Shown in pieces: positions 4,300-64,000 of a DNA stretch of 64,000 bases. The DNA is taken from contig NC_092677.1 of the NCBI RefSeq assembly GCF_964355755.1, positions 766,101-830,100 on the forward strand. The letters run 5' to 3'. The notes beneath the pieces were generated by a model. It worked only from the letters and a program-made list of their open reading frames with translations, did no database searches and was not told where the DNA came from. Position 1 is the first letter of the stretch. Each line of letters opens with the position of its first letter. A program made the position numbers and the translations under genes. The stretch is from Antedon mediterranea (Eukaryota; Animalia; Echinodermata).

Positions 4300-4334
<35 letters not shown>

Positions 4335-19353: not shown

Positions 19354-19375
19354 AATAAATAAATAAATAAATAAA

Positions 19376-19530
19376 GATTTTGACAGAATCAAGAGGTTAT
19401 ATGCATATCATGCATATAACCTAATAAAGATTTTGACAGAATCAAGAGGTTATATGCATGATAATGCATATAACCTAATAAAGATTTTGACAGAATCAAG
19501 AGGTTATATGCATGATAATGCATATAACCT
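19376..19530 (-). repeat. Stack of three family-A 5' heads
   Basis: Heads at 19376, 19429 and 19483; loops atc, gata, gata. Confidence 0.95.
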
Positions 19531-19532
19531 AA

Positions 19533-27050: not shown

Positions 27051-27248
27051 GATTTTGACAGAATCAAGAGGTTATATGCATGATAATGCATATAACCTAA
27101 TAAAGATTTTGACAGAATCAAGAGGTTATATGCATGATAATGCATATAACCTAAAAAGAAACACTACAATAACAAAGGTTATCCGCTTGAGGCGGATAAC
27201 CAATAATATAAAAAAAGAAACACTACAATTCCAAGGGCTTATCCGCTA
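27051..27248 (-). repeat. Mixed head stack A, A, B, B(truncated)
   Basis: A heads at 27051 and 27105; B head 27158-27201; a second B-type head from 27218 breaks off at ...CTTATCCGCT and fuses to internal D-body sequence. Confidence 0.92.
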
Positions 27249-29492: not shown

Positions 29493-29588
29493 AGACAACA
29501 ATCAGGTGGTGGTTCGAAACGTTTACGAAATAACAAAGGTCGTTTTGTCTAAACTAAGAAGATTGATAACAAAAAAGCACAAGGTAAT

Positions 29589-42100: not shown

Positions 42101-45100
42101 ATGTCCGGTTAGCCATATTGATGCATGATTTGATATCTGCAACTAATCTACTACCAGAATATGTAATTATAAAAAAGTTCACCACGTAGTTTAGAATCTA
42201 TGACTGTTTAAAATAAGGCATAATTTTGACAAATTTTTGAACTTTTTCATCAAAAATGCGCGTAAATTGTTTAATTCTACGTGCTCGTATGACGTGATTT
42301 TAAGTCGAAATTGTTTGAAAGTTGGTAAATTTTCTAAAAAAGACAGGAAAAACAAAAATCAAGCAAAAAAATGATGTTTTTGCGCTACGTGCGCACGTGC
42401 GCGTAAAAAAATTGCGCACGGGTGGGAATTTTTGAAATGCTCAAAATGACATGAAACGCGTAGAAAGTTGATTAGAAATTGATTTTTCGCATTTTTAAAT
42501 TTTAAACGCGCGTGCGCGCGTAACTTTCTGTGAAACATGGCATTTTCTCTCCATAGAAAGTTAGCGCATGATATAAATTAAACTTTTGCCAAGTTTCAAT
42601 TTAAATGGTTTAATAGTTTTCGATCTAAATTAAATACGCGAAATTCATAAAATCGCGCGTAACTTACGCTGCGCAACTCGAACGGTACCGAAAACCTTAT
42701 TACGACATATTCAGATAGAGATCAATCTTCTGATAAAGTTACAAAATGTTATGTTGAGAAGATTTAGAGATATACGCGCAACAAAATTCTGGGAAAGAAA
42801 GAAGAATAAGAAAGAAAAAAAAAAAAAAAAAAAAAAAAACTAGATTTGAACTCGTCACTTCGGACGAGTTAGGTTATCCGCAGCGCAAAGGCCACGCGCA
42901 CGTCATACGTTAGAATATTGCGCGCAGAAAAACGATTATGCCATTGAAAAAATGTTAGTGCGCTCTCTATTTTGCGTCACGTCAAAGTATATACGGTATA
43001 CACTATATTCTGTATACGTACTACATACAGTGCAGAATAGGTGAAAATAAGGGACCCAAGTTATTGACGCTTTTGGACATGATGACGTCATCACAATTTC
43101 AAAAATGGTAGATTATGCGAAAGATAATTGATTGGCCTAGACAATATATGAAAATGGGGGGAAATGGAATACGGATAAGTGGAGATGCGCTCTATTAAAT
43201 GTGATGAGCTATGCGAAAGAGACAAAAATCCTATATTTTATATTCGAGTGGCCATACGATGACGTCATAATATTCGGTTAGCCATATCAATGCAAGATTC
43301 GATAAATACAACCCATCTACTTCCAGAATATGTAATTTTAAAAAAGTTCACCACGTAGTTTAGAATTTACGACTGTTTTAAGAAAGGCATAATTTTCACA
43401 AATTTTTGAACTTTTTCATGAAAAACGCACGCAAATTGTCCAATTCTACGTGCTCGTATGACGTGATTTTAAGGCAAAATTGATTGAAAATTTGTAAATT
43501 TACTATAAAAGGCTGAAAAAACAAAAATCAAGCAAAAAAATGATGTTTTTGTGCTACGTGCGCACGTGCGCGTAAAAAAATTGCGCACGCATGGGAATTT
43601 TTTTAATGCTAAAAATGACATGAAACGCGTAGAAAGTTGATTAGAAATTGATTTTTCGCATTTTGAAATTTTAAACGCGCGTGCGCGCGTAATTTTTTTG
43701 AAACATGCCATTTTTAATCCATAGAAAGTTTGCCCTTGATATAACTTAAATTTTCACTAAGGGTCAATACAAAATGACTTTTAGTTTTTAATCTATGATC
43801 AATCATTGAAATTCATAAAATCGCGCGTAACTTACGCTGCGCAACTCGGACGTGACCGAAAACCTTATTACGACATCTTCAGATAGAGGTCAATCTTCTG
43901 CTAAAGTTATATAATGTTATGTTTAGAAGATTTAGAGATACACTAGCAACAAAATTCTGGGAAAGAAAGAAGAACATAGAAAAAAAAACTAGATTTGAAC
44001 TCGTCACTACGGACGAGTTAGGTTATCCGCAGCGCAAAAGCCACGTGCACGTCATACGTTAGAATATTGCGTGCAGAAAAACGATTATGCCACTGAAAAA
44101 AATGTTAGTGCGCCCTCTATTTTGTGTCACGTCTAAGTATATACGGTATACACTATATACTGTATACGTACTACATACAGTGCAGAATAGGTGAAAATAA
44201 GTGACCAAAGTTATTGACGCTTTTGGACATGATGACGTCATAACAATTTTAAAAATGGTGAATAAATCGAAAGATAATTGATTGACCTAGACAATATATA
44301 AAAATGGGGGGAAATGGAATACGGATAAGTGGAGATGCGCTCAATTAAATGTGATGAGCTATGACGAAAGAGACAAAAATCCTATATTTGATATTCGTGT
44401 GGCCATACGATGACGTCACAATGTCCGATTAGCCAAATCGATGATTGATTTGATATCTACAACTCATCTACATTCAGAATGTGTAATTTAAAAAAAGTTC
44501 ACCACGTAGTTTAGAATCTATGACTGTTTAAAAAAAGGCATAATTTTGACAAATTTTTGAACTTTTTCATCAAAAATGCGCGTAAATTGTTTAATTCTAC
44601 GTGCTCGTATGACGTGATTTTAAGTTGAAATTGTTTGAAAGTTGGTAAATTTACTAAAAAAGACAGGAAAAACAAAAATCAAGCAAAAAAAATGATGTTT
44701 TTGCGCTACGTGCGCACGCGCGCGTAAAAAAATTGCGCACGCGTGGGAATTTTTGAAATGCTCAAAATGACATGAAACGCGTAGAAAGTTGATTAGAAAT
44801 TGATTTTTCGCATTTTTAAATTTTAAACACGCGTGCGCGCGTAACTTTTTGTCAAACATGCAATTTTTAATCCATAGAAACTTTGCGCATTATATGACTT
44901 AAATTTTCACCAAGTTTCAATACAAAAAAACTTTTAGTTTTTATTCTATGATCAATCATTGAAATACATAAAATCGGGCGTAACTTACGCTGCGCAACTC
45001 GGACGCGACTGAAAACCTTATTACGACATCTTCAGATAGAGGTCAATCTTCTGATAAAGTTATACAATGTTATGTTAAGAAGATTTAGAGATACACTAGC

Positions 45101-45154
45101 AACAAAATTTGTGGAAAGAAAGAAGAAAATAGAAAAAAAAAGAGAAAAAGAAAA

Positions 45155-48100
45155 CTAGACATGTAACTCGTCACTTTGACGAGTTTGGTTATCCGCCGCG
45201 CAAGTGGTGCAACATTAACATTAAGGGGATAGGTTGAGGACAAAAGGAAGTGTTCACGTTGGCATTATGATCTGAACTGAAGAATATGATATGTTGTTAT
45301 TGCTGAATTTTATTATTTAAATTCATATATAGTATACACAGTATATTCTGTATCCATATCACATACAGTGACATACAGTGTAGAATAGGTGAAATTACGG
45401 GACCTGCTATTTATTGCAATTTTTAACATGTTGACGGTTTTAAAATAAAACGCGAAGGTAGCAATTCCGAAAGGAAATTATATCAGCAACAACGTATTAG
45501 CGTGTAGAAGAAATTTGAATACGTGAAATATTGATGCGCGCTCTTTTAAATGTAATGAATTATGACGCAAAAGATGAAAATACGACCTTTTTTATTTAAC
45601 TGGCCATATGATGACGTCACAACATCCGATTGGCAACATTTTTACATAATTTCGTATCTACAATCCAATAGCTTCCAGAAAAAGTTTTAATCGTGATTAT
45701 CACATTTTATTCTTACGAGCTATAACAGATTAAAATTTACTGTAAAGATGAAATTGATGCCACACGTGATTTAAATTTTTAGGCATGATGACGTCAAAAA
45801 AATTAAAATATTTTTAACTCATGCGAAAGATAGTTGATTGACCTAGACAATATCAAAATCAGGGTGAAAATGGAAAACGAATAAGTGGAGATGCGCTCTA
45901 TTCAATGTGATGAGTTATGACGAAAGATACAAAAATCCTAAATTTTATATTCGCGTGGCCATACGATGACGTCACAATGTCCGGTTAGCCATATTAATAC
46001 CTGATCCGATATCTACAACTCATCTACTTCCAGAATATGTCATTCACAAAAAGTTGACCGTCTAGTTTAGAAATTACGACTGTTTAAAAAAAGGCATATT
46101 TTAAACGAATTTTTTAACCTTTTCATAAAAAACGCGCGCAAATTGTCCAATTTGACGTGCTCGTATGACGTATCTTTAAGTCGAAATTGTTTAAAATTTG
46201 GTAAAATTGCTAGAAAACATAAATCACGCGAAAAAAATACGTTTTCAATGCTACGTGCGCACCGCACACGTAAAAATGTGCGCACGCGTGGGAATTTTTG
46301 ACATGCTTAAAACGACATGAAACGCGTAGAAAGTTGATTATAAATTAATTTTGCGCATTTTGAAATTTTAAATACGCGTGCGCGCGTAACTTTGTGTAAA
46401 ACACGCAATTTTTTTTCAACAGAAAGTTAGCGCATGATATAAATTAAACTTTTGCAAAGTTTCACTTTAAAATGTTATTTGGTTTTCGACATATGTTAGA
46501 TACGAGAAAATCGTTAAATCGCGCGTACGTCACGTTGCGCAATTGTAAACATCATGAAAAGCTTCGCTTGACGACGTTACATAAATGTCAAAATGTTAAC
46601 ATAGTTACCGAAATGTTATGTTTGCGAGTTTTAGAGAAAAGCGTTACACAAAAATCATACAGAAAGAAAGAAGAAGAACTAGACATGTAACTCGTCACTT
46701 TGACGAGTTTGGTTATCCGCCGCGCAAGTGGTGCAACATTAACATTAAGGGGATAGGTTGAGGACAAAAGGAAGTGTTCACGTTGGCATTATGACCTGAA
46801 CTGAAGAATATGATATGTTGTTATTGCTGAATTTTATTGTTTAAATTCATATATAGTATACACAGTATAATCTGTATCCATATCACATACAGTGTAGAAT
46901 AGGTGAAATTACGGGACCCGCTATTTATTGCAATTTTTAACATGTTGACGGTTTTAAAATGAAACGCGAAGTTAGCAATTCCGAAAGGAAATTATCTCAG
47001 CAACAACGTATTAGCGTGTAGAAGAAATTTGAATACGTGAAATATTTATGCGCGCTCTTTTAAATGTAATGAATTATGACGCAAAAGATGAAAATACGAC
47101 CTTTTTTATTTAACTGGCCATATGATGACGTCACAACATCCGATTGGCAACATTTTTACATAATTTCGTATCTACAATCCAATAGCTTCCAGAAAAAGTT
47201 TTAATCGTGATTATCACATTTTATTCTTACGAGCTATAACAGATTAAAATTTACTGTAAAGTTGAAATTGATGCCACACGTGATTTAAATTTTTAGGCAT
47301 GATGACGTCAAAAAAATTAAAATATTTTTAACTCATGCGAAAGATAGTTGATTGACCTAGACAATATCAAAATCGGGGTGAAAATGGAGAACGGATAAGT
47401 GGAGATGCGCTCTATTCAATGTGATGAGCTATGACGAAAGATACAAAAATCCTAAATTTCATATTCGCGTGGCCATACAATGACGTCACAATGTCCGGTT
47501 AGCCATATTAATACCTGATCCGATATCTACAACTCATCTACTTCCAGAATATGTCATCCACAAAAATTTGACCGTCTAGTTTAGAAATTACGACTGTTTA
47601 AAAAAAGGCATATTTTAAACGAATTTTTTAACCTTTTCATAAAAAACGCGCGCAAATTGTCCAATTCGACGTGCTCGTATGACGTATCTTTAAGTCGAAG
47701 TTGTTTAAAATTTGGTAAAATTACTAGAAAAGGCTGGAAAAACATAAATCACGCGAAAAAAATACGTTTTCAATGCTACGTGCGCACCGCACACGTAGAA
47801 ATGTGCGCACGCGTGGGAATTTTTGACATGCTTAAAACGACATGAAACGCGTAGAAAGTTGATTATAAATTAATTTTGCGCATTTTGAAATTTTAAATGC
47901 GCGTGCGCGCGTAACTTTGTGTAAAACACGCAATTTTTTTTCAACAGAAAGTTAGCGCATGATATAAATTAAACTTTTGCAAATTTTCAAGTTGAAATGT
48001 TATATGGTTGTCGAGCTATGTTAAATACGACAAAATCGTTAAATCGCGCGTAAGTCACGTTGCGCAATTGTAAACGTCATGAAAAGCTTCGCTTGACGAC

Positions 48101-49807
48101 GTTACGTAAATGTCAATATGTTAAGATAGTTACCGAAATGTTATGTTTGCAAGTTTTGGAGAAAAGCGTTACACAAAAATCATACAGAAAGAAAGAAGAA
48201 GAACTAGACATGTAACTCGTCACTTTGACGAGTTTGGTTATCCGCCGCGCAAGTGGTGCAACATTAACATTAAGGGGATAGGTTGAGGACAAAAGGAAGT
48301 GTTCACGTTGGCATTATGACCTGAACTGAAGAATATGATATGTTGTTATTGCTGAATTTTATTGTTTAAATTCATATATAGTATACACAGTATAATCTGT
48401 ATCCATATCACATACAGTGTAGAATAGGTGAAATTACGGGACCCGCTATTTATTGCAATTTTTAACATGTTGACGGTTTTAAAATGAAACGGGAAGGTAG
48501 CAATTCCGAAAGGAAATTATCTCAGCAACAACGTATTAGCGTGTAGAAGAAATTTGAATACGTGAAATATTGATGCGCGCTCTTTTAAATGTAATGAATT
48601 ATGACGCAAAAGATGGAAATACGACCTTTTTTATTTAACTGGCCATATGATGACGTCACAACATCCGATTGGCAACATTTTTACATAATTTCGTATCTAC
48701 AATCCAATAGCTTCCAGAAAAAGTTTTAATCGTGATTATCACATTTTATTCTTACGAGCTATAACAGATTAAAATTTACTGTAAAGATGAAATTGATGCC
48801 ACACGTGATTTAAATTTTTAGGCATGATGACGTCAAAAAAATTAAAATATTTTAACTCATGCGAAAGATAGTTGATTGACCTAGACAATATCAAAATCCG
48901 GGTGAAAATGGAAAACGGATAAGTGGAGATGCGCTCTATTCAATGTGATGAGCTATGACGAAAGATACAAAAATCCTAAATTTTATATTCGCGTGGCCAT
49001 ACGATGACGTCACAATGTCCGGTTAGCCATATTAATACCTGATCCGATATCTACAACTCATCTACTTCCAGAATATGCCATCCACAAAAATTTGACCGTC
49101 TAGTTTAGAAATTACGACTGTTTAAAAAAAGGCATATTTTAAACGAATTTGTTAACCTTTTCATAAAAAACGCGCGCAAATTGTCCAATTCGACGTGCTC
49201 GTATGACGTATCTTTAAGTCGAAATTGTTTAAAATTTGGTAAAATTACATGAAAAGGCTGGAAAAACATAAATCACTCGAAAAAAATACCTTTTCAATGC
49301 TACGTGCGCACCGCACACGTAAAAATGTGCGCACGCGTGGGAATTTTTGACATGCTTAAAACGACATGAAACGCGTAGAAAGTTGATTATAAATTAGTTT
49401 CGCGCATTTTGAAATTTCAAATGCGCGTGCGCGCGTAACTTTGTGTAAAACACGCAATTTTTTTTCAACAGAAAGTTAGCGCATGATATAAATTAAACTT
49501 TTGCAAAGTTTCACTTTAAAATGTTATTTGGTTTTCGACATATGTTAAATACGAGAAAATCGTTAAATCGCGCGTACGTCACGTTGCGCAATTGTAAACA
49601 TCATGAAAAGCTTCGCTTGACGACGTTACATAAATGTCAAAATGTTAACATAGTTAACAAAATGTTATGTTTGCAAGTTTCAGAGAAAAGCGTTACACAA
49701 AAATCATACAGAAAGAAAGAAGAAGAATAAAAAGTTGATGATGATGATGATGATGATGATTTCGTACAATCACAAGAGGTTATCCTGCAACTTCGTTGCG
49801 GATAACC
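45155..49807 (-). mobile_element. Family-E trimer (three ~1525-bp bodies, one head) inserted in D5
   Basis: CTAGACATGTAACTCGTCACTTTGACGAGTTTGGTTATCCGCCGCGC three times; (GAT)n tract, then head GGTTATCCtGCAAC-ttc-GTTGCGGATAACC. Confidence 0.87.
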
Positions 49808-51015
49808 AAATAAAAAAAAAAAGATCCTGACAATAACAAGGGGTTATCCGCCAAGTGCGGATAACCAACTAGATTTGAACTCGTCACTACGGACGAGTTA
49901 GGTTATCCGCAGCGCAAAGGCCACGCGCACGTCATACGTTAAAATATTGCGCGCAGAAAAACGATTAAGTCATTGAAACAATTTCAGTGCGCTCTCTATT
50001 TTTCGTCACGTCTGAGTATATACGGTATACACTATATACTGTATACGTACTACATACAGTGCAGAATAGGTGAAAATAAGTGACCAAAGTTATTGACGCT
50101 TTTGAACATGATGACGTCATCACAATTTTGAAAATGGTGAATCGTCCGAAAGATAATTGATAGAGCTAGACAACATAAAAAAATGGGGGGAAATGGAATA
50201 CAAATAAGTGGAGATGCGCTATATTAAATGTGACGAGCTACGAGGAAAGAGACAAAAATCATTTATTTTATATTCGAGTGGTCATACGATGACGTCACAA
50301 TGTCCGGTTAGCCATATTGATGCATGATTTGATATCTGCAACTAATCTACTAACAGAATATGTAATTATAAAAAAGTTCACCACGTAGTTTAGAATCTAT
50401 GATTGTTTAAAAAAAGGCATAATTTTGACAAATTTTTGAACTTTTTCATCAAAAATGCGCGTAAATTGTTTAATTCTACGTGCTCGTATGACGTGATTTT
50501 AAGTCGAAATTGTTTGAAAGTTGGTAAATTTTCTAAAAAAGACAGGAAAAACAAAAATTAAGCAAAAAAATGATGTTTTTGCGCTACGTGCGCACGTGCG
50601 CGTAAAAAAATTGCGCACGCGTGGGAATTTTTGAAATGCTCAAAATGACATGAAACGCGTAGAAAGTTGATTAGAAATTGATTTTTCCCATTTTGAAATT
50701 TTAAACACGCGTGCGCGCGTAACTTTATGTGAAACATGCCATTTTCTCTCCATAGAAAGTTAGCGCATGATATAAATTAAACTTTTGCCAAGTTTCAATT
50801 TAAATGGTTTAATAGTTTTCGATCTAAATTAAATACGCGAAATTCATAAAATCGCGCGTAACTTACGCTGCGCAACTCAAACGGTACCGAAAACCTTATT
50901 ACGACATATTCAGATAGAGATCAATCTTCTGATAAAGTTACAAAATGTTATGTTGAGAAGATTTAGAGATATACGCGCAACAAAATTCTGGGAAAGAAAG
51001 AAGAATAAGAAAGAA

Positions 51016-52234
51016 CTAGATTTGAACTCGTCACTACGGACGAGTTAGGTTATCCGCAGCGCAAAAGCCACGTGCACGTCATACGTTAGAATATTGCGTG
51101 CAGAAAAACGATTATGCCACTGAAAAAAATGTTAGTGCGCCCTCTATTTTGTGTCACGTTTAAGTATATACGGTATACACTATTATACTGTATACGTACT
51201 ACATACAGTGTAGAATAGGTGAAAATAAGTGACCAAAGTTATTGACGCTTTTGGACATGATGACGTCATAACAATTTTAAAAATGGTAAATCAATCGAAA
51301 GATAATTGATTGACCTAGACAATATATAAAAATGGGGGAAAATGGAATACGGATAAGTGGAGATGCGCTCTATTAAATGTGATGAGCAATGACGAAAGAG
51401 ACAAAAATCCTATCTTTGATATTCGTGTGGCCATACGATGACGTCACAATGTCCGGTTAGCCAAATCGATGCATGATTCGATATCTACAACTCATCTACA
51501 TTCAGAATATGTAATTTTAAAAAAGTTCACCACGTAGTTTAGAATCTATGACTGTTTAAAAAAAGGCATAATTTTGACAAATTTTTGAACTTTTTCATAA
51601 AAAATGCGCGTAAATTGTTTAATTCTACGTGCTCGTATGACGTGATTTTAAGTTGAAATTGTTTGAAAGTTGGTAAATTTACTAAAAAAGACAGGAAAAA
51701 CAAAAATCAAGCAAAAAAATGATGTTTTTGCGCTACGTGCGCACGCGCGCGTAAAAAATTGCGCACGCGTTGGAATTTTTGAAATGCTCAAAATGACATG
51801 AAACGCGTAGAAAGTTGATTAGAAATTGATTTTTCGCATTTTGAAATTTCAAACGCGCGTGCGCGCGTAACTTTTTGTGAAGCATGCAATTTTTAATCCA
51901 TAGAAAGTTTGCGCATTATATGACTTAAATTTTCACCAAGTTTCAATACAAACAAACTTTTAGGTTTTATTCTATGATCAATCATTGAAATTCATAAAAT
52001 CGCGCGTAACTTACGCTGCGCAACTCGGACACGACTGAAAACCTTATTACGACATCTTCAGATAGAGGTCAATCTTCTGATAAAGTTATACAATGTTATG
52101 TTAAGAAGATTTAGAGATACACTAGCAACAAAATTTGTGGAAAGAAAGAAGAAAATAGAAAAAAAAAGAGAAAAAGAAAAATAAAAAAAAGATCCTGACA
52201 ATAACAAGGGGTTATCCGCCAAGTGCGGATAACC
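51016..52234 (-). mobile_element. Complete family-D element (D7), near-identical to D5 but without the E insertion
   Basis: Uninterrupted tract GAGAAAAAGAAAAATAAAAAAAA then head GATCCTGAC...GCGGATAACC. Confidence 0.88.
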
Positions 52235-52594
52235 AACTAGATTTGAACTCGTCACTACGGACGAGTTAGGTTATCCGCAGCGCAAAAGCCACGTGCACGT
52301 CATACGTTAGAATATTGCGCGCAGAAAAACGATTATGCCATTGAAAAAAATCTTAGTGCGCTCTCTATTTTGCGTCACGTCAAAGTGTATACGGTATACG
52401 CTATATACTGTATACGTACTACATACAGTTCAGAATAGGTGAAAAGAAGTGACCAAAGTTATTGACGCTTTTGAACATGATGACGTCATAACAATTTTAA
52501 AAATGGTAAATCATGCGAAAGATAATTGATTGACCTAGACAAAATAAAAAAATTGAGGGAAATGGAATACGGATAAGTAGAGATGCGCTGTATT

Positions 52595-52839
52595 TGTTGC
52601 GGACTTCTTTAATTGTGCGAGGAGCTTTCGAATTTGTTGCGGACTTTAATTGTGCTTAGCTCTTCTTTAATTGCGCGTTTTTTCTTTATTTGTGCATTTC
52701 GTTTTATATTTTCACGCTTTCTTTTGTTTATATGCGATTCCTTCTTTAATTGTGTGATTTCTTCTTTAATTGTGTGATTCCTTCCTTAATTGTGTGAATA
52801 TGATTTATATAGTGTGCGTGACAGTTGTGGGCCACCGTA
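52595..52839. repeat. Short-repeat-rich block (CTTCTTTAATTGTGYG motifs) ending GGCCACCGTA; possible end of an unrelated DNA element
   Basis: About 6 copies of TTTAATTG(T/C)G(C/T); abuts the truncation point of D8; no partner end seen in the window. Confidence 0.45.
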
Positions 52840-53356
52840 TAAAACAGAATATAACTGTATTTATGAAATATTCTAAATATGTTATACAGTGTAGGAAAGA
52901 TTAAATTACGAGACTTATTTTTTAATTCAATTTTTAACTTGAAGGAATCATGAAAATGTAATATAAAATAGTAATTTAAATCTAGTATTTTGTGCTGCCA
53001 CCAAGCATAGTTTTTTTTTTCACTTCTGGTCAACATGTATCATGTATGCATCCTCTGTCTGCTGAAAATAGACAATACGGGCATGCGCGAGAGTAGTTCG
53101 GGTTAAGCCACGCCCATTTATGTAAATTACCCACGTTCGTCATGGAAAAAAAAATTGGACGGGGGTAAATGTGATATATTTTATGTTGTGATTGGGTATT
53201 TAGTTATTTGGTAATGACTGAACATGCGCACTTTTTTTTTTATATTGAGTATTTGATTGGTTAAAATTTTCCATATATGACGTTGTTGCATAAAAGTTAA
53301 GATAGAGTAAAGTAGTTAGTTGGAAAGTCAATGTAAAGTCAAAGTGTTGGGAAAGG

Positions 53357-56300
53357 ATGTCGAAAGTACGGAAGATTTACATAGTCGAAAAATTCGAAAG
53401 GAGGGCATCTTCCAAGGGGCGGAGATCCTTCGCTGTTGGATCAGTATTGGAATGTGGCGATACAGAAGTAAGGAATTGCTTTATCAATGAGACAGAAAGT
53501 GTAGTAGCAGAACGGTTATATAACTTAGAAGTGGGGACAAAGGTTATGATAACCGAAGTGAAACCGAGCCTTGATAATAATTCGTTGAAATTAACAGACA
53601 AATCTAAGGTATGCAATTAATGTATTTTTTATTAAATTATTATTATTATTGTTTATTTAATAGGTCTATGTCTATGTTGATATAAAATAGAATCCGTGCG
53701 TCACTATTGTTCTTAAAAAACTAAAACGGTACTTATATATAATTATGATCCATGATAACAATTATAATACAATGTCATTTAATTAGATTTAGAAACCAGT
53801 TGATAACAATTGAATAATAAATAATAAACAGACGTTATTAACAGAATAGGGAGAAGAAATTGTTTATTATAAATTAATTTACTCATTGATTGTTTATTTA
53901 AATTTTGTCATGAAATTTGCAATTTGTAGCCTAGGCTATTGTTTATAACATTAAAAAAACATTTAAATTGACAAAATTATGATTGAGTATAATTCTTCTG
54001 AGTGTTAGGTCTATGTCATATTGCCAGTATAGGTTAATTGTAAATTCTGCTTTGTAAATACAATTTTCTGTTCAAGTACAAATTGAAGTAAGAAATTACG
54101 AAACTGTGGTAGGTGTACCCTATATATATTTTATTTTAATCAAACTTTTTCTTTTGTGATTTTAAGGTTTTGACAAACATTGCTGATTTTGATGTTAATA
54201 TAGAAGTTGTTCGTAATTTTATCAGACCACCGACAGTGTCAATGTCAACAGCTAGGGGAAGCCCGAAGAAAACGAGGCTATCTTTGAATGGGACAGTAAT
54301 GAAGGTAACATTTTCTTTTGATTTAATCTGGGGTTAGGCTTATAGCACAGTTGTGAAATTATGAGCTAGTTTCGTTTCGTACCTTACTTTTATTTCGACT
54401 CTAAATTTGTTAAGGAAAAGTAACAAATAAATCCTTTAAATTGAGTGATTTTCAGAGGTGTTTTTTGCACATGATTTGTAAATTTCCCTAATTGACATTT
54501 CTATGGAGCGCCAAAAAAGCAACTATAATATAGGGCTAAAAAAAATCAGTGGAATTCGTATGTTTAATACATCTATTGATGAAAATTACGTTCAATTTCA
54601 AAACAATTTAGTCAATTTCAATACAACTAAAATGTTACTCTTTATTAACTTTGAAGAATAAAAATCGACAAATTCATAATAATAAGGTGTACTGAGGTTT
54701 ATTTACCTCAGTGATTTAAATAATATACTTTTTAGTCTTAGTCCCGGGCATAGACTAATTAGTTATGCTGATTTAGGGTCGGTTAATGTTTTTTGAAAAC
54801 AGTACATTCTCAGAAGTAACATGTTACAACATTTTTATTGGGAAAAAAAATGGAAATCAAAACGTGTATTTCATAAATAGATGCATAAAAAGTAGACGCA
54901 TTCCACTGAGTTTTAAACCTCTATTATAGTTTCTCTTTTGGTGCTCCATATAAACGAAAATATTGAAGTTTGTGTATACAAAATTCGAAATTTACACGTT
55001 AGTAAAATCATTAAAACATTTTATTTGTTACTTTTTATGTGATTCTTCATACAAGTACTTTGAGCCTCAATTGTAAGGTGTGGTATTTATAATAAGTTAC
55101 TTAACAAGTTTGAAGTCGAAATAAAAACAGGTGCTTAAAGGAACTAGCGACGTTATGAACAGTTATAACTTTCGTACTTTGTTTAGACTTGAGGATGAAT
55201 GAATTTATATTATCATATTAGGATGCTTTATTTAGATACTCATTAATCAGTTTTACTATGCAATATGATGGAATATGATAAATAAACATTTGTTGTTTAT
55301 CATATTAAAGTAATGTATAGATATTCACCAGTAGTATAAATTAATTAAATTATAATTATAAACTATTAGACTATTAGTGTAGGTCTATTATAATTTGAAA
55401 ATTGTTAATTTGGTAATATAATTTTAATAATCAATTACTAGATTAAAAGAAACCCAAAAATATATAATATAGCACCAGTTTTAACATCACATGCCTTTGT
55501 TGTTTTTTTGGTTGGTTTAGGTTGGTGAACTTTACGAAACACCAAAGTATAAAAGAAGATTGTTGACATTAGGCAGTAGCCCAGATAATTGTATCGACGT
55601 AGTTTTGTGGGGGGAGACCGCCTCAAATGTGTCAAGTGATATGAAAAATCAAGAACTAACCCTATCAGCACTAGTAATGGAAGACAAAGAGTTGAGAAGT
55701 ACTCCATCAACAGTGTTGGAGGTATGCATTTTGTTTTATTACTTTTTGGTAAATGAATATGTAACAGTGGTTTTGTTTTTAGAATGAAAACAACATTGAT
55801 ATATTGAATAAATGTATAGAAAGTATTTTAGTGCCAATATCTATCAATAGCTTGGGAAGTCATATTGAAACATTGGAATATTTTGTTAGAAATTATTTAT
55901 AGGTTGTTTGAAAGTAATGTGTGATAGTGTTGTCTTAACTCAAAAAAGGAATAAAAAAACATAATATTTGTATATTGTTTTATATTTAGGTTATTTTTGT
56001 GAGAGATAAATATCAATTAGTTGTGTATATGTTGTAGATAAGGTTATTTTATATGTGTATTAAATCATAACCAATGTTCAATATATTTCATTTGATTTTT
56101 TTGTGCTGTAGGCTGGCGGAGTTAATTCAGTTGATGGTGTAATTGTGGCTGTAGGAGATGAAAGTGATGGGTATGTACTTTTTTGTAATGTTTAAATTGT
56201 TTATATTATATTTGGTGATTGTGATATAATTGACTTTGAAAAAATAATTTTTCCAAAAAAAATTGTGTTCAATATGTCATTTTAATATGAAATAATAGTT

Positions 56301-56700
56301 TAATGAAATTGGTGAAAAAAGTTATTTACCTAAAAATACCATAATTTAAGGCAAAAATAGTCAAAATGGTTGCTTTTGGTTAAGATGTGAAGATTTTGTT
56401 TCTTCTTTTTTTTATGAAAGTGATTACTTTCATTAAAGTCTAATGTTAATAATTTTTTTTTCTAATAATTTTTCATGTATTTGGGGGACAATGCATCTTT
56501 AAAATATTACATTTTATATCTATTTTGATTATTATAATGATTGTTTTGATTGCAGGTATCCTGTTGACATGTACATGGAAAATGACGCTCTACTACACAT
56601 ACCAGAAGATCTACATTTTGATTTCAATTTTAATTTGCCATGTCGTGTGAATTATTCTGCTAATAGTTTTGGGTGTATTACCGATATTCAATTTTTGTAA
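53357..56700 (+). CDS. Five-exon gene, 264 aa, RPA70-like OB-fold ssDNA-binding protein (probable Helitron accessory gene)
   Basis: Exons 53357-53608, 54167-54304, 55521-55721, 56112-56170, 56556-56700; all GT-AG, phases 0,0,0,2, open from ATG to TAA. Exon 3 VGELYETPKYKRRLLTLGSSPDNCIDVVLWGETA resembles the RPA1 DBD-B pattern KR.l.L.D......tLWGe.A. Gene structure is well supported; the fold call is by motif recognition only. Confidence 0.75.
54346..55165. mobile_element. Old palindromic (foldback/MITE-like) element in intron 2
   Basis: GCTAGTTTCG..TTTTATTTCGACTCTAAATTTGTTAAG (~54365-54415) is inverted at ~55100-55148; TATGGAGCGCCAAAA..AACTATAATA (~54502) is inverted at ~54923-54951. The left arm is also present in the paralog (~63710-64000). 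Confidence 0.75.
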
Positions 56701-56914
56701 GGTAACAGTTGTTTGCAAGTTTGTTTTAATGTGTTTTTATTTTATATATTTGTTGAAAAGTAAATTTAATGAGTTTGTACTTAAAATCATTAAATTTACT
56801 TTTATTATTTATTAATATACTGAATTAACATTGATTATTTAATAGACATATATGATAATCTTATCTACAAAATATACAATGCTAATTAATATTTTTTTAA
56901 AGTAATAAAGGAAA

Positions 56915-57365
56915 TACATACCTCCAACACTGTTGAAGGGTAGTTCTTAACTCCTTTTCTTCCATTATAAGTGCTGATATTGTTAATTTGATTTGTCATA
57001 GCACCCGACACACCCAAGGTTGCTTCCCCCCCCCCTTCCACCATATAACTACGTCGATACAATTAAGTAGGCTAATGCCTAATGTCAACACTTTTTTTTT
57101 ATTTTGGTGTTTCATAAGGTACACATTAATTGCGTACCTTAGATTTGTTTGTCAACCTCAATGAATTATTATCAAGAGTTGGTTTTAAGTTCGGTTATCA
57201 TAACCTTACTTCCCACTTCTAACATGAATAATTGTTTTGCTACTACAACTTCTGTCTCATTTATATAGCAATTTTTTACTTTGGTATTATTACTTTAAGT
57301 TATTGAACCAACACTGAATATCTCCACTTTTTGAAGATTCCCTCTGTTCAAATTTCTCAATTATA
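56915..57365 (-). pseudogene. Inverted, internally deleted copy of the RPA-like gene (exon 1, ~20 nt of intron 1, then exon 3 with donor)
   Basis: Reverse complement matches ..GATAATAATTCATTGAGGTTGACAAACAAATCTAAG|GTACGCAATTAATG, then ..GAAACACCAAA..TTGACATTAGGC..TCAACAGTGTTGGAG|GTATG; frameshifted. Confidence 0.85.
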
Positions 57366-57499
57366 ATTTTATCAATTTAAATGTTTAAAAAACAATATAT
57401 TATAAACCAACTAACCTACAAAGTTTAATAAACACTGGATATTAAAAACTTGAAATCTGAAATGTCTTTCAGCGCAAATTTTTAAGTAATCAATTTCAG

Positions 57500-60400
57500 T
57501 AAATTTTTTTTTTTAAATGCTGTATTTTGTTTCTAAATGAGGTAAATGATTAATGTAAATTTAATAATTTTGTATTTATAATCAGTGTAATTTGCTGCTA
57601 ATTTAGATAACTGTAAATTTTTTATTATAATCTTTGTATTTTGTTGTTAATTAAAATAATTTAAAATTAGTGTAAATGAGTTAAATGAATAATATAAATA
57701 TATTATTTTTGTATTATATAAATTTATTAAATTATAAATGAAAAAATTTAAATTTATATTAATTATTTATATTCATTAACAATAAATTACACTAACTATA
57801 AATACAACATGTAGGCTTCATGAAATATTTATTAGCAGCAAATTAGACTGATTATAAACATAAAAACATTAAATTAACATTAATGATTTAACTCATTTAG
57901 CAACAAGTCACTGATTTTGAGTAGAAAATCATTAAATTTACATTAATTATTTATTTAAACTAGTACCAAACTCAACTGATTATAAATACAAAATAATATC
58001 AATATGTTAAAGGGTGGTCTTACCATAGAGATATTATGTATAGTGAACTATAATATCTCTATGGTCTTATCTGTTATCTCTTTAATTTTGTTTACATTTT
58101 ATTTAGCCTTGAACATTACCAAAACAACCACACAATTTGGTAAAAAACAGAAATTATGCATTATAACATCCCCTGAAATTACCTGTTTTTGTTTGACATC
58201 ATGTTGCCTTTACATGGAAATCAAGATAAATTTAATAATTTTGTATTTATAATCAGTGTAATTTGCTGCTAATTTAGATAAACAATTTAAATTTTGTATT
58301 ATAATCTTTGTACTTTGTTATTAATTAAGATAATTTAAAATAAGTGTAAATTGTTGGTAAATGAGTTAAATAATGATGTAAATATAATAATTTTGTATTT
58401 ATACAAATTTATTAAATTATAAATACACTAATTATAATACAAAAAAACAAAACTGATTATAAATACAAAATAACATCAATTGAAGGGTGGTCTTTTCTGT
58501 TTAATTTAGTTTATATTTTATTTAGCCTTAAACATTACCAAAACAACCACACAATTTGGTGAAAAAAACCCAGAAATTATGCATTAAAAAATCCCTTAAA
58601 TTAGCTGTTTTTGTTTGACATCATGCTGCCATTATGTGGAAATCAATGTAAATTTAATAATTCTGTATTTATAATCAGTGTAATTTGCTGATAATTAAGA
58701 TTAACAATGTAAATTTTGTATTATAATATTTGTAGTTTGTTGTTAAGATAATTAAAAATCATTGTAAATTTGGGTTAAATGAAAAATATAAATACAACAA
58801 ATATTCAAAATAAACTGATTATAAATATAAAATAATATCAATATGTTGAAGGGTGGTCTTATCTGTTTAATTTAGTTTACAATTTATTTAGCCTTAAATG
58901 TTATGCGAAAACCAACCGGATTTTTGGGTACATAAACAAATTGTTATGTATCCATCTCCATGATATAAGCAGAAATAATTAATTTTGTTTGTTTGTTTTT
59001 TTACTGAATTCAATAAAAACTCCATACAAATTCTACAAGCTCAACTGTTGTAATTTGCTGCTAATTAAGAAAAATGATTAATGTAATTTTGATAATTTTG
59101 TATTTATAATCAGTGTAATTTGTTGCTAATAAATATTTATTGTAAATTTTGTATTTATAATTAGTGTAATTTATTGCTAATTAGTATAAATAAATAATGT
59201 AAATTTGAATATTTTTAATTATTAATCTAAATATATAATGATTTTGTATTTATAATCAATGTTTTTTTTTTTTGCTAATTACAGTAGATTGATTAAATGT
59301 AAATTGAAATCATGTTGTTTAATCAGTGTAACTTGCTGCTAATTAAGATAAATAATGTAAATGTTGTATTTAATCAGTGTAATTTTTTTTGGTAAATAGT
59401 TAAATGATTAAAGTATGATGTGAATTTGTTTATTTTTTGTACTTTGTTGTTAATTAAGATAATTGAAATCAGTGGTAAATGAGTTAAATGAATAATATAA
59501 ATGTAAATATAATAATGTTGTATTTATAATCAGTGTAATTTGTTGCTAATTAAGATAAATAATTAATTTAATCATGTTTGCACAAGATAACTATTAAATG
59601 TCATTATGATATGATTTAATTGTTTTAGTCATTTTTTTGATTTTATTTCATTTTATGTAAGCCGCTAGTCTTTACACAGTTATGGGGAAAATGGTAAAAT
59701 CAGCATTGTGGTCATATGATGTTACAAGAGTTTTGCAAAATCAGCACATCGTGGGGCGCGTCAAACTGTTCGTTAATAGGCTTGTTTTATGGTAAAACCT
59801 TTTAACTACCCGATAAGCTAACAATTTCAAGTTTTGCTAAATAGTGTAAAACCAGGTGGGTATAATAAACTAATAGCTAAAGGGTCAGTATCAATCTTAC
59901 CAACGTCGAGAAAAGCCGACAATGGAAAATGTCGTCTAGTCACAAATGTCGAGAAAGACCTTTCATTTGGTAGAAACATTATTCAGTTACTGTAAATGGA
60001 AAAAAGTTTTAACATGCACTTTGGTGAATGAGATATAAAAGTGTTTTTATTTTGAATAGTTGTGTTCTCTATACTGCTTATAACATAAATATGTAATATT
60101 TAGATTGAAAACAAAAAAAATATATATTGAAAAAAAAAAAGAAAATTGAAAAAAAAGAAAAATTGTTTTGGGGCATTTTTTTTTTATATAACCATGAATC
60201 TAAAAAAAAAAAATTAAAATGTAGCTTATTCAATAAGAACCATTTTTTCATATACTAACAGAAAGTGGTTTAAATTGTCAACAAAGGGAACTGTTTTTAA
60301 AAACGTGAAAAAATAATTAAAATAAAAAAGAATGCGTTTTAATGTGAATTGTGCTTAAAAAGAATCCGGTATGATAAGGCCGTGCTATTTATGTTATATT

Positions 60401-61260
60401 TTATGCCTAATAATTATCTAAATAGATTCGCGTATACACTCATCATGTTTGTTTATTTTTATGTAACGATTGTTTTTTTTTATTCAAGTCATAGTGTGTC
60501 AAATTTTACTTTTACAAAAGTGCCCAAACTGTTGGAAAGTTGTGCATCCGTATGCATCATATTTTTAAAATGAGAATGACAGTCTTCAACTTTCGATAAA
60601 CAATAAATTATATTGTTATAGCGACACTTATATTAGCAACGTACAGACTTTTCTCTGAGCGGCGTGGCAAAAAAATGTTTGACATTCCATTCTCTATGAA
60701 ATCAACACGTGTACTTCTCTTCCCAATAAACTGAACAGCGATAAAGTTCATTAACTGGCGGTGAATAAAAGGTAACTGATATGCCGATCAAATAACATGT
60801 GGGGTTGTTTTGGTATTGTTTAAGCATGGACGTATAATTTAGATATAGGTCCAAGGTTTAAGGCTAAATAAAATGTAAATTAAATTAAACAGAAAACAGA
60901 TAAGACCATCCTTTAACATATTTATATTATTTTGTATTCATAATCAGTTTAGTTTGGTGCTAGTTATAATAAATAATTAATGTAAATTTAATGATTTTGT
61001 TCTTAACATCAGTGTAATTTGTTGCTAAATGGGTTAAATGATTAATGTAAAGTTAATGTTTGTATATTTACATGTATAATCAGTGTAATTTGCTACTAAT
61101 AAATAATTAAATTTTGTATTATAATTAGTGTAATTTATTGGTAATGAAGATAAACAATGTAAATTTGAATAATGTTCGTATTTATAATTAGTGTAATTTA
61201 TTGATAATTTAAATTAATTATTAATGTCAATTTAATGATTTTTTATTTATAATCTGTAAT
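57500..61260. repeat. Very AT-rich degenerate repeats in both orientations (TTTTGTATTTATAATCAGTGTAATTTGYTGCTAAT motif), with a non-repetitive core ~59600-60850
   Basis: Motif recurs more than 10 times; block ~57800-58120 is inverted relative to ~60855-61100; ~400-bp higher-order units at ~58000-58900. Confidence 0.8.
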
Positions 61261-61267
61261 TTTTTGC

Positions 61268-64000
61268 AAATTACGAGACCCCTTTTTTAATCTAATTTTT
61301 AATTTGAAGGCATGATCAAAATGTAATATAAAAATAGCAATTTAAATCTAGTATTTTGTGCTGCCACTTAGCATAGTTTTTTTTTTCACTGCTCGTTACC
61401 ATATCGGGTAAATGTGATATACTTTACGTTGTGATTGGACATTTAGTTACTATTTTTGGTAATGACTGAACATGCGCACTTTATTGTTATATTGATCATT
61501 TGATTGGTTAAAAAATGTCCATCAATGACGCTCATGCGCAAAAGTTGCGGTATAGTAGTACGTAAACTAGTTAGTTAGTTGGATCAGAAAGTCAATGTGA
61601 AGCCAAGGTGTATGGATTGTCGAGAGAGGGATGTCGAAAATACGTAAATAATTGTATAGGCCTAGGCTAGGCCTAGTCGAAAAATTTGAACGGAGGGAAT
61701 CTTCCAAGAAGGTGCGGAGATCCTCGGTGTTGGTTCAGTGTTCGAATGTGGTGATACCAAAGTAAAGTATTGCTATATAAATGAGATAGCATGCAGAACG
61801 ATTATTCATGTTAGAAGTGGGAAGAAGAGTTATTTTATGATAACCGAAGTTAAACGAAGTCTTGATAAACATTCGTTGAGGTTGACAAATCTAAGGTATG
61901 GAATTATTATTAATATTAATGTATATTTTTTGTTATTATAGGCCTATTTGTTTATTTAATTTACAAAAGTGCCATTTATTTGTTATTAGGCCTAGCTAGG
62001 TCTGTCACACCAAAATCAGTCCGGGCCAAAATCGGTCCGGCGGACCAGTTTTGGCTGCCAAAATCAGTCCGGGGGACCATTTATGGCTGCCAAAACCTGT
62101 CCGGCCGGACTAATTTTGGCCGCCAAAACTGGTCCGGCCTGGATAAAATCGGTCCGGGCAGTAGGACTGCTTTTGGCCGCCAAATATGGTCCGATCTTGC
62201 AAATATATGGTGCGCAAAATGAGTCATAATGTATATATTATTTTAAAAGGCCATGATTAGTCATTATAATTTATATTGAAAACTACGGGGTTTTATTTGT
62301 TATTTTAATATTATAAATTAAGCCTGTTTTTTTATCATCATTATTACTATTAGTAGTAACTCATCAATAATTAGTACTAATTTTTAGGTTTTTTGTGTAC
62401 AATTAATTCTCTGTCTGTTTTTAATCCATTTTGTTCTTTTGTTTTTTTAACATCTTCGTTTCCCCATGATGTTAAAAACAATTTAATAATTTATTACTAA
62501 TTTATGGTTAATCAATCAATATCAATTCAGTACAATCATTATAAAACAATTATCCAATATTGATTAGGCTGAGGAAGGAAAAAGGCCTCAATCATAAAAT
62601 AATAAAATCTGGCTGGCAATATCAGCGTCTCATACCCGTTCATGTGACTGTGTGGCAGGCTGAAATATGAGTGAACACCTAAGTCATGTTTTTAGATAAA
62701 ATACATTTATTTATAGTATTTATCCGACAAGATAACTTACTTATATATCTCATGGGATATTTTTCTAGCCATAAACAACTTAAAACAGCATCATAGGCCT
62801 AGTAATTCAATTAAAATCGACAGAAGAAAAACCCGGACCGATTTTGGCAGTGGCGGACTGCTTTTGCCCACAACTTTAGAGCCAAAACTGGTCCGGCCGG
62901 ACCGATTTTGGCCCCGGACCATATTTGTTTGTCGTGACACCTTCTAGCTAGGCTACGTCTAGGCCTATGTATGTTAATATAAAATAAAATCAGTTAAAAA
63001 ACTAAGACGGTAGGCCTACCTAAATACTTAACCATGTTAACAATTATAATAGTGTAATACAATGTCATTTAATAAGATGTAGAAACCAGTTGATATATAT
63101 AAATAATTGAATAATAAACAGACGTTGTTAAAGGAATAGGGAGGAGTAATTGTTTTTTGAGGGGAAGGACATTTCAGTCTTGAAATTTCTAATATCCGGT
63201 GTTTATTTAAACTTTGTCATCATGGAATTTGCAATTTGTAGGCTAGTTGGAGGCCATATGGTAGGCCTAGGCCTATCTATATATAACATTGAAATAACAT
63301 TTAAATTGATAATATTATAATTGAAGTATAATTGTTATGCCATATTGCCAGTATAATTGTAAATTCTGAGTTGTATGATTTTTTTTTTTAATAAATAAAA
63401 TTTTCTGATGTTTGTTCATCAAATACAAATTGAAGTAAGAAATGACCAACCTGTGGAGTGTGGTGGTGTAAGCCTAGACCGCCTATATACATATTTTGTT
63501 TTAATGATTATTTTTCTTTTGTGTTAATAGGTTTTTACAAATATTGCTGATTTTAATGTCAATATGGAAGTTGTTCGTAATTTTGTCAGACTATCGACGG
63601 TGTCAATGTCAACAGCTAGGGGAAGCCCGAAGAAAACAGGGCTATCTTTGAATGGGACATTATAGAAGGTAATATTTTCTTTTGATTTAATCTAGGCCTA
63701 GGCTTATGTAGCACAGTTAGTTTAATGAACGGTGCTAGTTTCGTTTTGTACCTGAATTTTATTTCGACTCCAAATTTGTTAAGAAACTTTTTCCTGAATA
63801 CCACACCTTCGAATTAGACCTCATATATACTTTTACGATGTAGAGTTACAGAAAAAGTAACAAATAAATCCTTTAAATTGATGAATTTACGACGTGTTTC
63901 TTGCACATGATTTGTCAATTTTGCATATTGACGTTTTTATGGAGCGCCAAAAGAGCCACTATAATAGAAGGCTAAAAGTCAGTGAAATGTACGTGTATAG
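61268..64000 (+). pseudogene. Second direct copy of the RPA-like gene (upstream region, exon 1 61631-61895, exon 2 63531-63668), disabled; runs off the window
   Basis: Colinear with 52900-54560 including introns; exon 1 has indels and an AGGCCTAGGCTAGGCCT insertion; exon 2 has an in-frame TAG (ACA TTA TAG AAG). Confidence 0.88.
62000..62943. mobile_element. Non-autonomous TIR element (MITE, possibly Mutator-like) in intron 1 of the pseudogene
   Basis: TIRs TGTCAC..GTCCGGGCCAAAATCGGTCCGG(C)CGGACCAGTTTTGGC at 62003 and inverted ending GTGACA at 62939; flanked by the direct repeat CTAGCTAG(G); absent from the intact paralog's intron 1. Confidence 0.85.

What the first reader, a model, noticed from the sequence alone, without database searches (positions are those of the whole stretch)
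52840..56700. Hidden intact spliced RPA-like OB-fold gene preceded by Helentron-body sequence
Seen: five GT-AG exons splice into an uninterrupted 264-aa ORF (the ORF track shows only fragments). Its upstream region (ACAGAATATAACTGTAT..TACAGTGTAGG..AAATTACGAGAC..TTCAATTTTTAAC, 52843-52940) resembles the C-body module at ~16290-16375 and the segment at ~40115. Established: some Helitrons carry RPA70-like ssDNA-binding genes. Inference: a diverged transposon-encoded SSB of this Helentron family. With RepHel-EN and the nested passengers it would form a three-part system.
Basis: partly seen in the sequence, partly recalled or inferred. Interest (0 to 1): 0.7.

Follow-up and report, generated by a model that had tools for sequence, protein, structure and literature searches.

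The report
Spliced ssDNA-binding-type gene beside a Helentron
An intact five-exon gene, in what is likely a feather-star genome, encodes a small protein whose family matches single-stranded-DNA-binding OB-fold proteins and occurs as scattered multiple copies in many marine invertebrates; it is likely a helper gene carried by rolling-circle (Helentron) transposons like the one beside it, but that linkage is inferred, not shown.

Summary
The gene is real. Five exons (53357-56700, four GT-AG introns) give an open 264-aa frame. A RefSeq protein of Antedon mediterranea matches it at 242/264 without gaps, and one contig of a presumed RNA run joins exons 3-4 exactly. It belongs to an unnamed family (33 clusters) found in echinoderms, a hemichordate, bivalves and a nemertean. 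The family profile matches solved SSB (E 1e-6) and RPA70 (E 1e-3) OB folds in the middle domain. The N-terminal domain is probably a second OB; the C-terminal domain is unassigned. It is not RPA70: no zinc-finger domain, 264 aa. The family behaves like a mobile gene: near-identical copies on different contigs, many fragments, two decayed copies in this window with pN<pS. The upstream similarity to Helentron bodies is real (0/300 shuffles), and two further copies of that module follow the OTU-RepHel-endonuclease gene; without the intervening nest the gene would lie 3.1 kb behind RepHel. But no termini enclose both genes, both nest junctions are truncated, and co-location elsewhere could not be tested. 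RPA-like Helentron helpers are known; this is likely a divergent, Pfam-invisible variant.

The parts
53357..53608 (+). exon 1 (ATG; residues 1-84; probable first OB domain)
   Evidence: resemblance to domain 2 by hhalign P 2.7e-4; Atlas features SSB-like, lead only
54167..54304 (+). exon 2 (residues 85-130; linker and first strand of the second OB domain)
55521..55721 (+). exon 3 (residues 131-197; core of the second OB domain with invariant W160)
   Evidence: Pfam REPA_OB_2 E 0.017, below cut-off; family profile vs PDB
56112..56170 (+). exon 4 (59 nt); exon 3-4 junction joined in one X5 contig
56556..56700 (+). exon 5 with stop; exons 4-5 encode an acidic 67-residue domain of unassigned fold
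52843..52980 (+). diverged copy of the internal module of family C/E non-autonomous Helentrons, about 380-510 nt upstream of the ATG
52903..53356 (+). 5' flank and likely promoter, shared with the decayed copy at 61268-61630
52594..52839 (.). fragment of a different repeat ending in a CCRTA terminus (IS3EU-like); cuts off the gene's upstream context
   Evidence: sequence; terminus type from PMC12730594 passage; many contigs pile on it
56803..57480 (-). decayed, inverted, internally deleted copy (exon 1 joined through a stub of intron 1 to exon 3; stops and frameshifts)
61268..64000 (+). decayed full-structure copy (module, promoter, exon 1, intron 1 with an extra insertion, exon 2, start of intron 2); runs off the window
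57500..61270 (.). rearranged AT-rich minisatellite region between the copies
29553..37834 (+). Helentron transposase in two frames (Herpes_teg_N, OTU, DUF6570, Rep; Pif1 helicase, AP endonuclease); one frameshift near 34470
39709..40424 (+). two tandem, decayed copies of the same Helentron internal module behind RepHel
   Evidence: nhmmer E 2.6e-8 and 4e-28
40426..52594 (-). nest 2 of non-autonomous Helentrons (families D, E): 10 hairpin ends, 3 opposite ends; starts with a D tail and stops in a D head
1479..29492 (-). nest 1 of non-autonomous Helentrons (families A-D): 18 hairpin ends, 16 opposite ends

Best explanation
The window holds an intact five-exon gene for a 264-aa protein of an unnamed marine-invertebrate family with an SSB/RPA-type OB domain, and it is likely an accessory gene of endonuclease-type rolling-circle transposons (Helentrons, HLE2) whose product would coat the single strand displaced during transposition. 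Shown: the gene structure, the family, the OB match of the middle domain, multiple copies, a Helentron internal module upstream. Inferred: the N-terminal domain is a second OB (like RPA70 domains A+B); conserved aromatic and basic residues (F25, F/Y42, W160, R16, K/R141-143) bind ssDNA; the gene lies inside Helentron ends, either about 3.1 kb behind this RepHel before the nest arrived, or at the start of a long element nested in the array; its product protects the ssDNA made by RepHel from nucleases and from host RPA-based damage sensing, and acts in trans for the many non-autonomous copies.
For: Gene; intron 1 donor at the same codon in two unrelated metagenome contigs. Fold: A2 profile vs PDB, top 3 of 15 hits are single-domain SSBs (E 1.3-1.4e-6), RPA70 chains 1jmc/1fgu/4gnx at E 1e-3; REPA_OB_2 hits 9 of 28 members, best E 1.6e-8; Atlas model pTM 0.62, TM 0.53-0.54 to three RPA70 clusters among 10 rows; domain 1 resembles domain 2; W160 in 20 of 20 rows that cover it. 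Mobility: 5 Antedon mediterranea loci on 3 contigs, two of them identical over 136 of 136 residues on different contigs; Lineus 142/142 on different contigs, Crassostrea virginica 241/242, 241/242, 101/101, Saccostrea echinata 139/139, 184/184; paralogues in one genome can be 27% identical (61/222) while two sea-urchin genera share 162/168; two decayed copies in the window with pN 0.145 vs pS 0.293, Fisher p 4e-5. Helentron link: same module behind RepHel (twice) and before both plus-strand gene copies; 3108 nt from RepHel stop to ATG if nest 2 and the CCRTA fragment are left out; 7 nest ends unclosed at the gene's position. Precedent: mite Helentron has RepHel-EN followed by an RPA ORF on the same strand, Nematostella Helentron has OTU+EN+RPA (PMC4067079 section 7 and supplement hits); Ssb-like OB almost only in HLE2 (PMC11417382 section 22).
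Against: No Helentron end was found in 29501-40399 or 52601-64000, nor a hairpin end on the other strand, so no element boundary encloses the gene. Both junctions of nest 2 are truncated and an IS3EU-like fragment sits directly upstream, so a deletion may have brought unrelated DNA together. The module match is about 100-140 nt at 71-76%, and such modules are abundant in this region. One homologue model (P0020, Solemya) is fused to an HTH of a DDE transposase (E 3.7e-7). HELIANO found RPA in HLE2 only in subgroup a and mostly upstream of RepHel, whereas this RepHel has the subgroup-b domains. P0002 alone hits no Pfam family and no PDB OB protein; N- and C-terminal alignments hit no OB structure; none of 28 members hit PF21473. 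Near-identical oyster loci may be assembly haplotypes. Only 1 of 4 predicted junctions is among the 10 joints of run X5. ssDNA binding is untested; the crinoid members lack an aromatic residue that other members show late in domain 2.
Confidence: 0.6

Rival explanations
1. The gene is an accessory ssDNA-binding gene of a different mobile element (for example a DDE transposon of the PIF/Harbinger-ISL2EU or IS3EU kind) and lies beside the Helentron nest only because this is a transposon-rich region; the upstream module is an old Helentron fragment that inserted before the local duplications.
For: Multi-copy, dispersed behaviour needs only some carrier; P0020 model fused to HTH_Tnp_4; IS3EU-like ends directly upstream and in intron 2; truncated nest junctions.
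Against: The CCRTA end at 52839 closes an element lying to its left, so the gene is outside it; no DDE transposase frame was seen in the six-frame listings of the neighbouring non-array DNA (not searched against families); the fusion is 1 of 18 proteins scanned and may be a gene-model join; a search for DNA transposon + replication protein A + accessory protein + Repbase found 0 papers, whereas rolling-circle elements have both need and precedent.
Confidence: 0.2
2. The gene is a host (or domesticated) OB-fold gene family of marine invertebrates that expands by ordinary tandem and segmental duplication in repeat-rich DNA and works in host DNA repair or germline processes.
For: Intron positions conserved across phyla; intact frame, likely transcript, purifying selection; local tandem copies; some identical loci may be haplotypes.
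Against: Identical copies on different chromosome-scale contigs in Antedon and Lineus; many fragmentary models; tree groups a sea cucumber with a nemertean (96/84) and splits sea-urchin paralogues (not tested against a host-shaped tree); 162/168 identity between two urchin genera against 20-55% typical family identity.
Confidence: 0.13
3. The gene is Helentron-borne but its OB domains serve mainly for protein binding or as a decoy of host RPA (dampening damage signalling or silencing) rather than for coating the transposon's ssDNA.
For: OB folds also bind proteins (established, recalled); the acidic third domain is unassigned; one late aromatic of domain 2 is missing in crinoid members.
Against: Aromatic and basic positions in both domains are conserved; domains 1 and 2 are basic (pI 9.0, 8.4); best solved matches are ssDNA binders.
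Confidence: 0.07

Closest known systems
RPA ORF of Helentrons (Helentron-Mo of the mite Metaseiulus; Nematostella Helentron; PMC4067079, sections 7, 8, 16 and supplement hits seen)
   Same: Separate gene for an OB-fold ssDNA-binding-type protein, same strand as and (in the mite) behind a RepHel-endonuclease gene; tandem OB domains like RPA70 A and B.
   Different: Mite ORF is intronless, 358 aa, with strong RPA1 domain hits (1e-15, 1e-12); this one has five exons, 264 aa and no Pfam hit. Sea-urchin, fish and lancelet Helentrons were scored RPA-negative in that paper's table. The Nematostella protein could not be compared and may be a relative.
Ssb-like_OB (PF21473) and RPA (PF16900) domains captured by HLE2 elements (HELIANO, PMC11417382, sections 4, 22, 23 and supplement hits seen; figures not visible)
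   Same: OB domain in a separate ORF near an HLE2 RepHel; this family's best solved matches are single-domain SSBs, and several members hit PF16900.
   Different: HELIANO places RPA in subgroup a and upstream of RepHel; this RepHel has subgroup-b domains. 0 of 28 members hit PF21473. HELIANO read unspliced ORFs, so a five-exon gene would mostly be missed (inference).
Plant Helitron RPA (PHRPA) and the rice Mothra mother element (PMC4683698, abstract and passages seen)
   Same: Spliced, fast-evolving, transposon-borne RPA-like gene; can travel in an element without RepHel.
Host RPA70 and crenarchaeal-type single-OB SSB (PDB 1jmc, 1fgu, 4gnx; 1o7i, 2mna; organism of 1o7i recalled as Sulfolobus)
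   Same: Middle domain aligns with the SSB OB fold and RPA70 domain B including the LWG motif.
   Different: No N-terminal interaction domain, no zinc-finger C domain (no cysteine column above 5 of 22 rows), multi-copy and fast-evolving.

Membership tests
OB-fold ssDNA-binding proteins (SSB/RPA type) | OB domain homologous to SSB/RPA DNA-binding domains | tested here: met
   middle domain: profile E 1.3e-6 to SSB, 1.1e-3 to RPA70; REPA_OB_2 in 9 of 28 members; Atlas TM 0.53-0.54
OB-fold ssDNA-binding proteins (SSB/RPA type) | conserved aromatic and basic residues on the binding face | tested here: inconclusive
   W160 20/20, F25 aromatic 13/14, position 42 aromatic 13/19, R142 basic 18/18; their position on a surface was not modelled (own folds failed)
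OB-fold ssDNA-binding proteins (SSB/RPA type) | binds ssDNA | not testable with these tools
   needs a binding assay
RPA70 (RPA1) orthologue | four OB domains, about 600 aa, zinc-finger C domain, single conserved copy | tested here: not met
   264 aa; no conserved cysteines; multi-copy
RPA70 (RPA1) orthologue | tandem DNA-binding domains A and B | tested here: inconclusive
   domain B-like met; domain 1 resembles domain 2 at P 2.7e-4, probability 42%, no PDB hit on its own
Helentron / HLE2 (the neighbouring transposase and passengers) | RepHel with C-terminal AP endonuclease, DUF6570 and the F/Y-x-R...GSPHxH signature | tested here: met
   criteria from PMC4067079 section 7 and PMC11417382 section 23
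Helentron / HLE2 (the neighbouring transposase and passengers) | subterminal inverted repeats, inner inverted repeat plus microsatellite at one end, hairpin at the other | tested here: met
   for the non-autonomous copies, read on the minus strand; criteria
Helentron accessory RPA/SSB gene (this gene) | lies between the ends of a Helentron | tested here: inconclusive
   no end motif in 52601-64000; 7 unclosed ends upstream; window stops inside copy 3
Helentron accessory RPA/SSB gene (this gene) | recurs at a fixed place next to RepHel in several copies or genomes | not testable with these tools
   no genome held; collection scans gave only two 1.1-kb contigs
Helentron accessory RPA/SSB gene (this gene) | dispersed multi-copy family with intact and decayed members under past purifying selection | tested here: met

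The most novel reading that the evidence does not exclude
The endonuclease/OTU Helentrons of marine invertebrates, scored as lacking an ssDNA-binding gene, in fact carry an ancient, intron-containing, compact SSB of their own: a family spread over echinoderms, hemichordates, molluscs and nemerteans, moved between species, independent of host RPA70, and missed because it is spliced and below Pfam thresholds.
Probability: 0.4. Interest if true: 0.62.

Novelty: new variant of a known kind. Interest (0 to 1): 0.42.

Why it matters
RPA-like helpers of Helitrons have long been proposed to bind the displaced strand but, in the papers seen here, remain untested and are called fragmentary and dispensable. 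An intact, small, three-domain, selected and probably expressed version gives a tractable protein for that test, and would put a function on dozens of 'uncharacterized' gene models in echinoderm and oyster genomes. If the family proves to be standard in subgroup-b Helentrons, the view that these lack an ssDNA-binding gene would be an artefact of unspliced ORF searches. If the link fails, it is still an unnamed mobile OB-fold family.

Tried and rejected
No whole genome is held, so genome-wide co-location was not run. No RNA holder listed among 5 runs; X5 is RNA only by guess, and parts it does not cover say nothing. Single-sequence AlphaFold2 failed for exon 1 (pLDDT 45) and P0002 (pLDDT 34); Foldseek with that model gave no match at E 0.001 and is meaningless. 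Word-index searches: exon 1 none of 22 candidates, exon 3 one of 270, P0002 none of 573. PDB by single sequence: 1 chance hit, none for exon 3; PHROGs 0 for 3 proteins; N-terminal alignment 0 hits, C-terminal alignment best E 0.49. Loci scans: P0002 in metagenomes 0 of 66 stretches, in viral contigs 0 of 6; Rep domain in viral contigs 0 of 4; oyster alignment in viral contigs 0 of 129, in metagenomes 2 of 358, both 1.1 kb with no context; three broader alignments were too diverged to scan with. The 386-nt repeats behind RepHel are not the Helentron module (within or below shuffle range against 5 families). The third domain does not match domain 1 or 2, so 'three OB folds' is not claimed. The simple chance figure for an open frame was not used, since exon ends were chosen. 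Copy 2 is not a retrocopy: it keeps intron stubs. Summed contig depth was not used as copy number. Earlier-findings look-ups by sequence and place found nothing. Literature searches found no paper describing this family; subscription papers, Repbase and the figures of PMC11417382 were not visible and may bear on novelty.
Full report
1. Observation. The five exons named in 'parts' join into 264 codons plus a stop, all four introns are GT-AG, and exons are GC-richer than introns. The exon choice is supported from outside the window. An exon-3 search returned one protein of 270 candidates, a 136-aa RefSeq model of the feather star Antedon mediterranea; its cluster holds a 264-aa model, P0002, identical to the window's product at 242 of 264 positions without a gap. 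From this I infer that the window is from an Antedon-like crinoid. In run X5 (contigs; RNA by the tool's guess) one 222-nt contig skips exactly the 390-nt third intron; it differs at 4 listed positions, 3 of them synonymous. The other three predicted junctions are not among the 10 joints listed; one more diverged contig joins exon 2 to exon 5. The exon 3-4 joint is not among the 15 joints shown for the three-run laying, where 16 more were not shown. Two metagenome contigs with about 16-18% identity to exon 1 in the alignment have a GT donor at the same codon.

2. The upstream module is real: BLAST E 1.6e-10 to 40116-40211 and 1.2e-5 to family C, 0 of 300 shuffles against C, E and 40000-40530, not significant against A, B, D. 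It is only 100-140 nt long.

3. What the protein is. P0002 alone hits no Pfam family and no OB structure by sequence; window exon 3 hits REPA_OB_2 weakly (E 0.017). A full HMMER search found 33 clusters at E 0.001 or better among 1.84 billion proteins. I looked up 21 of the 33; 18 have named members, all 'uncharacterized' or 'hypothetical' proteins of crinoids, sea urchins, a sea cucumber, Ptychodera, oysters, Solemya and Lineus. A profile of 22 members matches solved single-domain SSBs (E 1.3-1.4e-6) and RPA70 DNA-binding domain B (E 1.1e-3 to 1.5e-3) over profile positions 115-198 (the 28-row profile gave 4e-5 and 0.03). REPA_OB_2 matches 9 of 28 members, best E 1.6e-8. The Atlas holds a model of P0002 (pTM 0.62, pLDDT 0.77) with TM 0.53-0.54 to three RPA70 clusters; its nearest row (TM 0.58) is an unnamed, mostly cnidarian cluster. 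Residues 1-100 resemble residues 108-198 (hhalign P 2.7e-4, probability 42%), residues 199-264 resemble neither, and alignments centred on the N- or C-terminal part hit no OB structure. W160 is present in 20 of 20 rows that cover it; aromatic residues at 25 and 42 and basic ones at 16, 78, 141-143 are conserved; no cysteine column exceeds 5 of 22 rows. The window gene keeps F25, F42 and W160. So: one shown and one probable OB domain plus a small acidic domain; RPA-like in fold, not an RPA70 orthologue. My own folds failed.

4. It behaves like a mobile gene. The window has two more copies, both broken: an inverted, deleted one at 56803-57480 and one with the same introns from 61268 to the window's end. 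Over four exon comparisons (258 codons, exon 1 used twice) pN is 0.145 and pS 0.293 (Fisher p 4e-5; single ratios 0.32, 0.77, 0.37, 0.54), so their lineages were once under selection. A. mediterranea has at least 5 loci on 3 contigs, Anneissia 4, C. virginica 4, S. echinata 4, Lineus, Ptychodera and S. purpuratus 2 each. Copies on different chromosome-scale contigs are identical in Antedon (136/136) and Lineus (142/142); oyster loci are 99-100% identical, which could partly be haplotype duplication; S. purpuratus and L. pictus share 162/168 while two S. purpuratus paralogues share 61/222. In a 30-row tree (4 proteins under 140 aa left out) the gene falls in a crinoid-urchin clade (100/99), and a sea-cucumber protein groups with the nemertean one (96/84); this was not tested against a host-shaped tree.

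5. Context. 29553-37834 encodes Herpes_teg_N, OTU, DUF6570, Rep, Pif1 and AP-endonuclease domains with the Helentron Rep signature and one frameshift near 34470; these domains mark HLE2 subgroup b (PMC11417382 section 23). It is flanked by two nests of non-autonomous Helentrons with the ends described for HINEs (PMC4067079, PMC7492417, PMC3627910 passages); RepHel reads opposite to them, for which those papers give precedents. Nest 1 is nearly balanced (18 and 16 ends), nest 2 is not (10 and 3), and no end motif lies in 29501-40399 or 52601-64000. A profile of C/E bodies finds the module twice in tandem behind RepHel (39709-40019, 40079-40424), then at 52880-52945 and 61268-61342 before the two plus-strand gene copies. 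Leaving out nest 2 and the fragment at 52594-52839 puts the ATG 3108 nt behind the RepHel stop. Two readings keep the gene inside Helentron ends: downstream gene of this element, or first gene of a long element that starts at the family-D end at 52236. A third does not: nest 2 begins with a D tail and stops in a D head, and the fragment before the module ends in CCRTA, the IS3EU terminus (PMC12730594 passage), so a deletion may have fused unrelated DNA. The window cannot decide, and no other locus with context was obtained. One homologue model is fused to a DDE-transposase HTH (1 of 18 scanned), a hint at another carrier.

6. Mechanism. Established (PMC11417382 section 4): RepHel has HUH endonuclease and helicase activity. 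Proposed in print, not shown (PMC4067079 section 16): captured RPA proteins bind ssDNA during transposition. Inferred here: two basic OB domains (pI 9.0 and 8.4) coat the displaced strand without needing the host trimer, and the acidic third domain (pI 4.1) handles self-association or partner binding. Confidence 0.6 for the whole; about 0.95 that the gene is real with an SSB-type OB domain, about 0.85 that it is mobile-element-borne.

7. Comparison and novelty. RPA genes in Helentrons are known: intronless 358-aa ORF behind RepHel-EN in the mite, RPA plus OTU in Nematostella, while sea-urchin, fish and lancelet elements were scored RPA-negative (supplement hits). HELIANO restricts HLE2 RPA to subgroup a, mostly upstream, and lists an Ssb-like OB domain almost only in HLE2; 0 of 28 members here hit that Pfam family. 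Plant Helitrons carry spliced RPA-like genes, also without RepHel (PMC4683698 passages). Ten literature searches showed no description of this family; PMC11934779 and PMC10045372 were seen as passages only and add context, not evidence. Repbase entries and subscription papers were not visible, and the Nematostella protein could not be compared. Earlier AI notes describe similar spliced second genes in fungal Helitrons; these are unchecked leads.

8. Verdict. Observation confirmed; interpretation partly supported. A real, intact, divergent OB-fold gene of a mobile multi-copy family, likely a Helentron ssDNA-binding helper. New variant of a known kind; interest 0.42.

Noticed in passing
window 1479-29492 and 40426-52594: Russian-doll nests of at least five non-autonomous Helentron families: new copies sit in the A-rich microsatellite near one end of older copies, giving runs of bodies followed by runs of ends (18/16 and 10/3 ends).
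   Followed up: partly
window 29493-29616: RepHel begins right after the last end of nest 1, and the sequence left of nest 1 is a LINE fragment (369-1478, minus strand); the two flanks do not look like one empty site, so the 5' part of the element seems lost or displaced.
   Followed up: partly
window about 34470: The only break in the roughly 2,760-codon RepHel-endonuclease frame lies in a run of A; natural or assembly error was not determined.
   Followed up: no
window 37968-39135: About three tandem copies of a 386-nt unit directly behind the RepHel stop; unrelated to the Helentron body module by shuffle test.
   Followed up: partly
window 32138-32667: An 18-residue (54-nt) repeat, about 9 copies, inside the RepHel N-terminal part.
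   Followed up: no
window 54365-55154: Intron 2 holds a high-copy inverted-repeat element with TATGG...CCATA-type ends (54498-54954) inside a second pair of inverted arms; the start of it is shared by the decayed copy near 63940.
   Followed up: partly
window 61990-62940: An insertion of about 950 nt with TGTCAC...GTGACA ends and GC-rich 32-nt repeats in intron 1 of the decayed copy.
   Followed up: no
window 58022-58065: A perfect 16-bp-stem hairpin inserted in one copy of a short repeated motif, apparently with a 6-nt duplication.
   Followed up: no
proteins P0036 and P0037: Family members of Strongylocentrotus purpuratus and Lytechinus pictus are 162/168 identical, a candidate horizontal transfer.
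   Followed up: partly
protein P0020 (KAL5019396.1): Solemya model joins an HTH of a DDE transposase to a family member; real fusion, neighbouring carrier or gene-model error is unknown.
   Followed up: no
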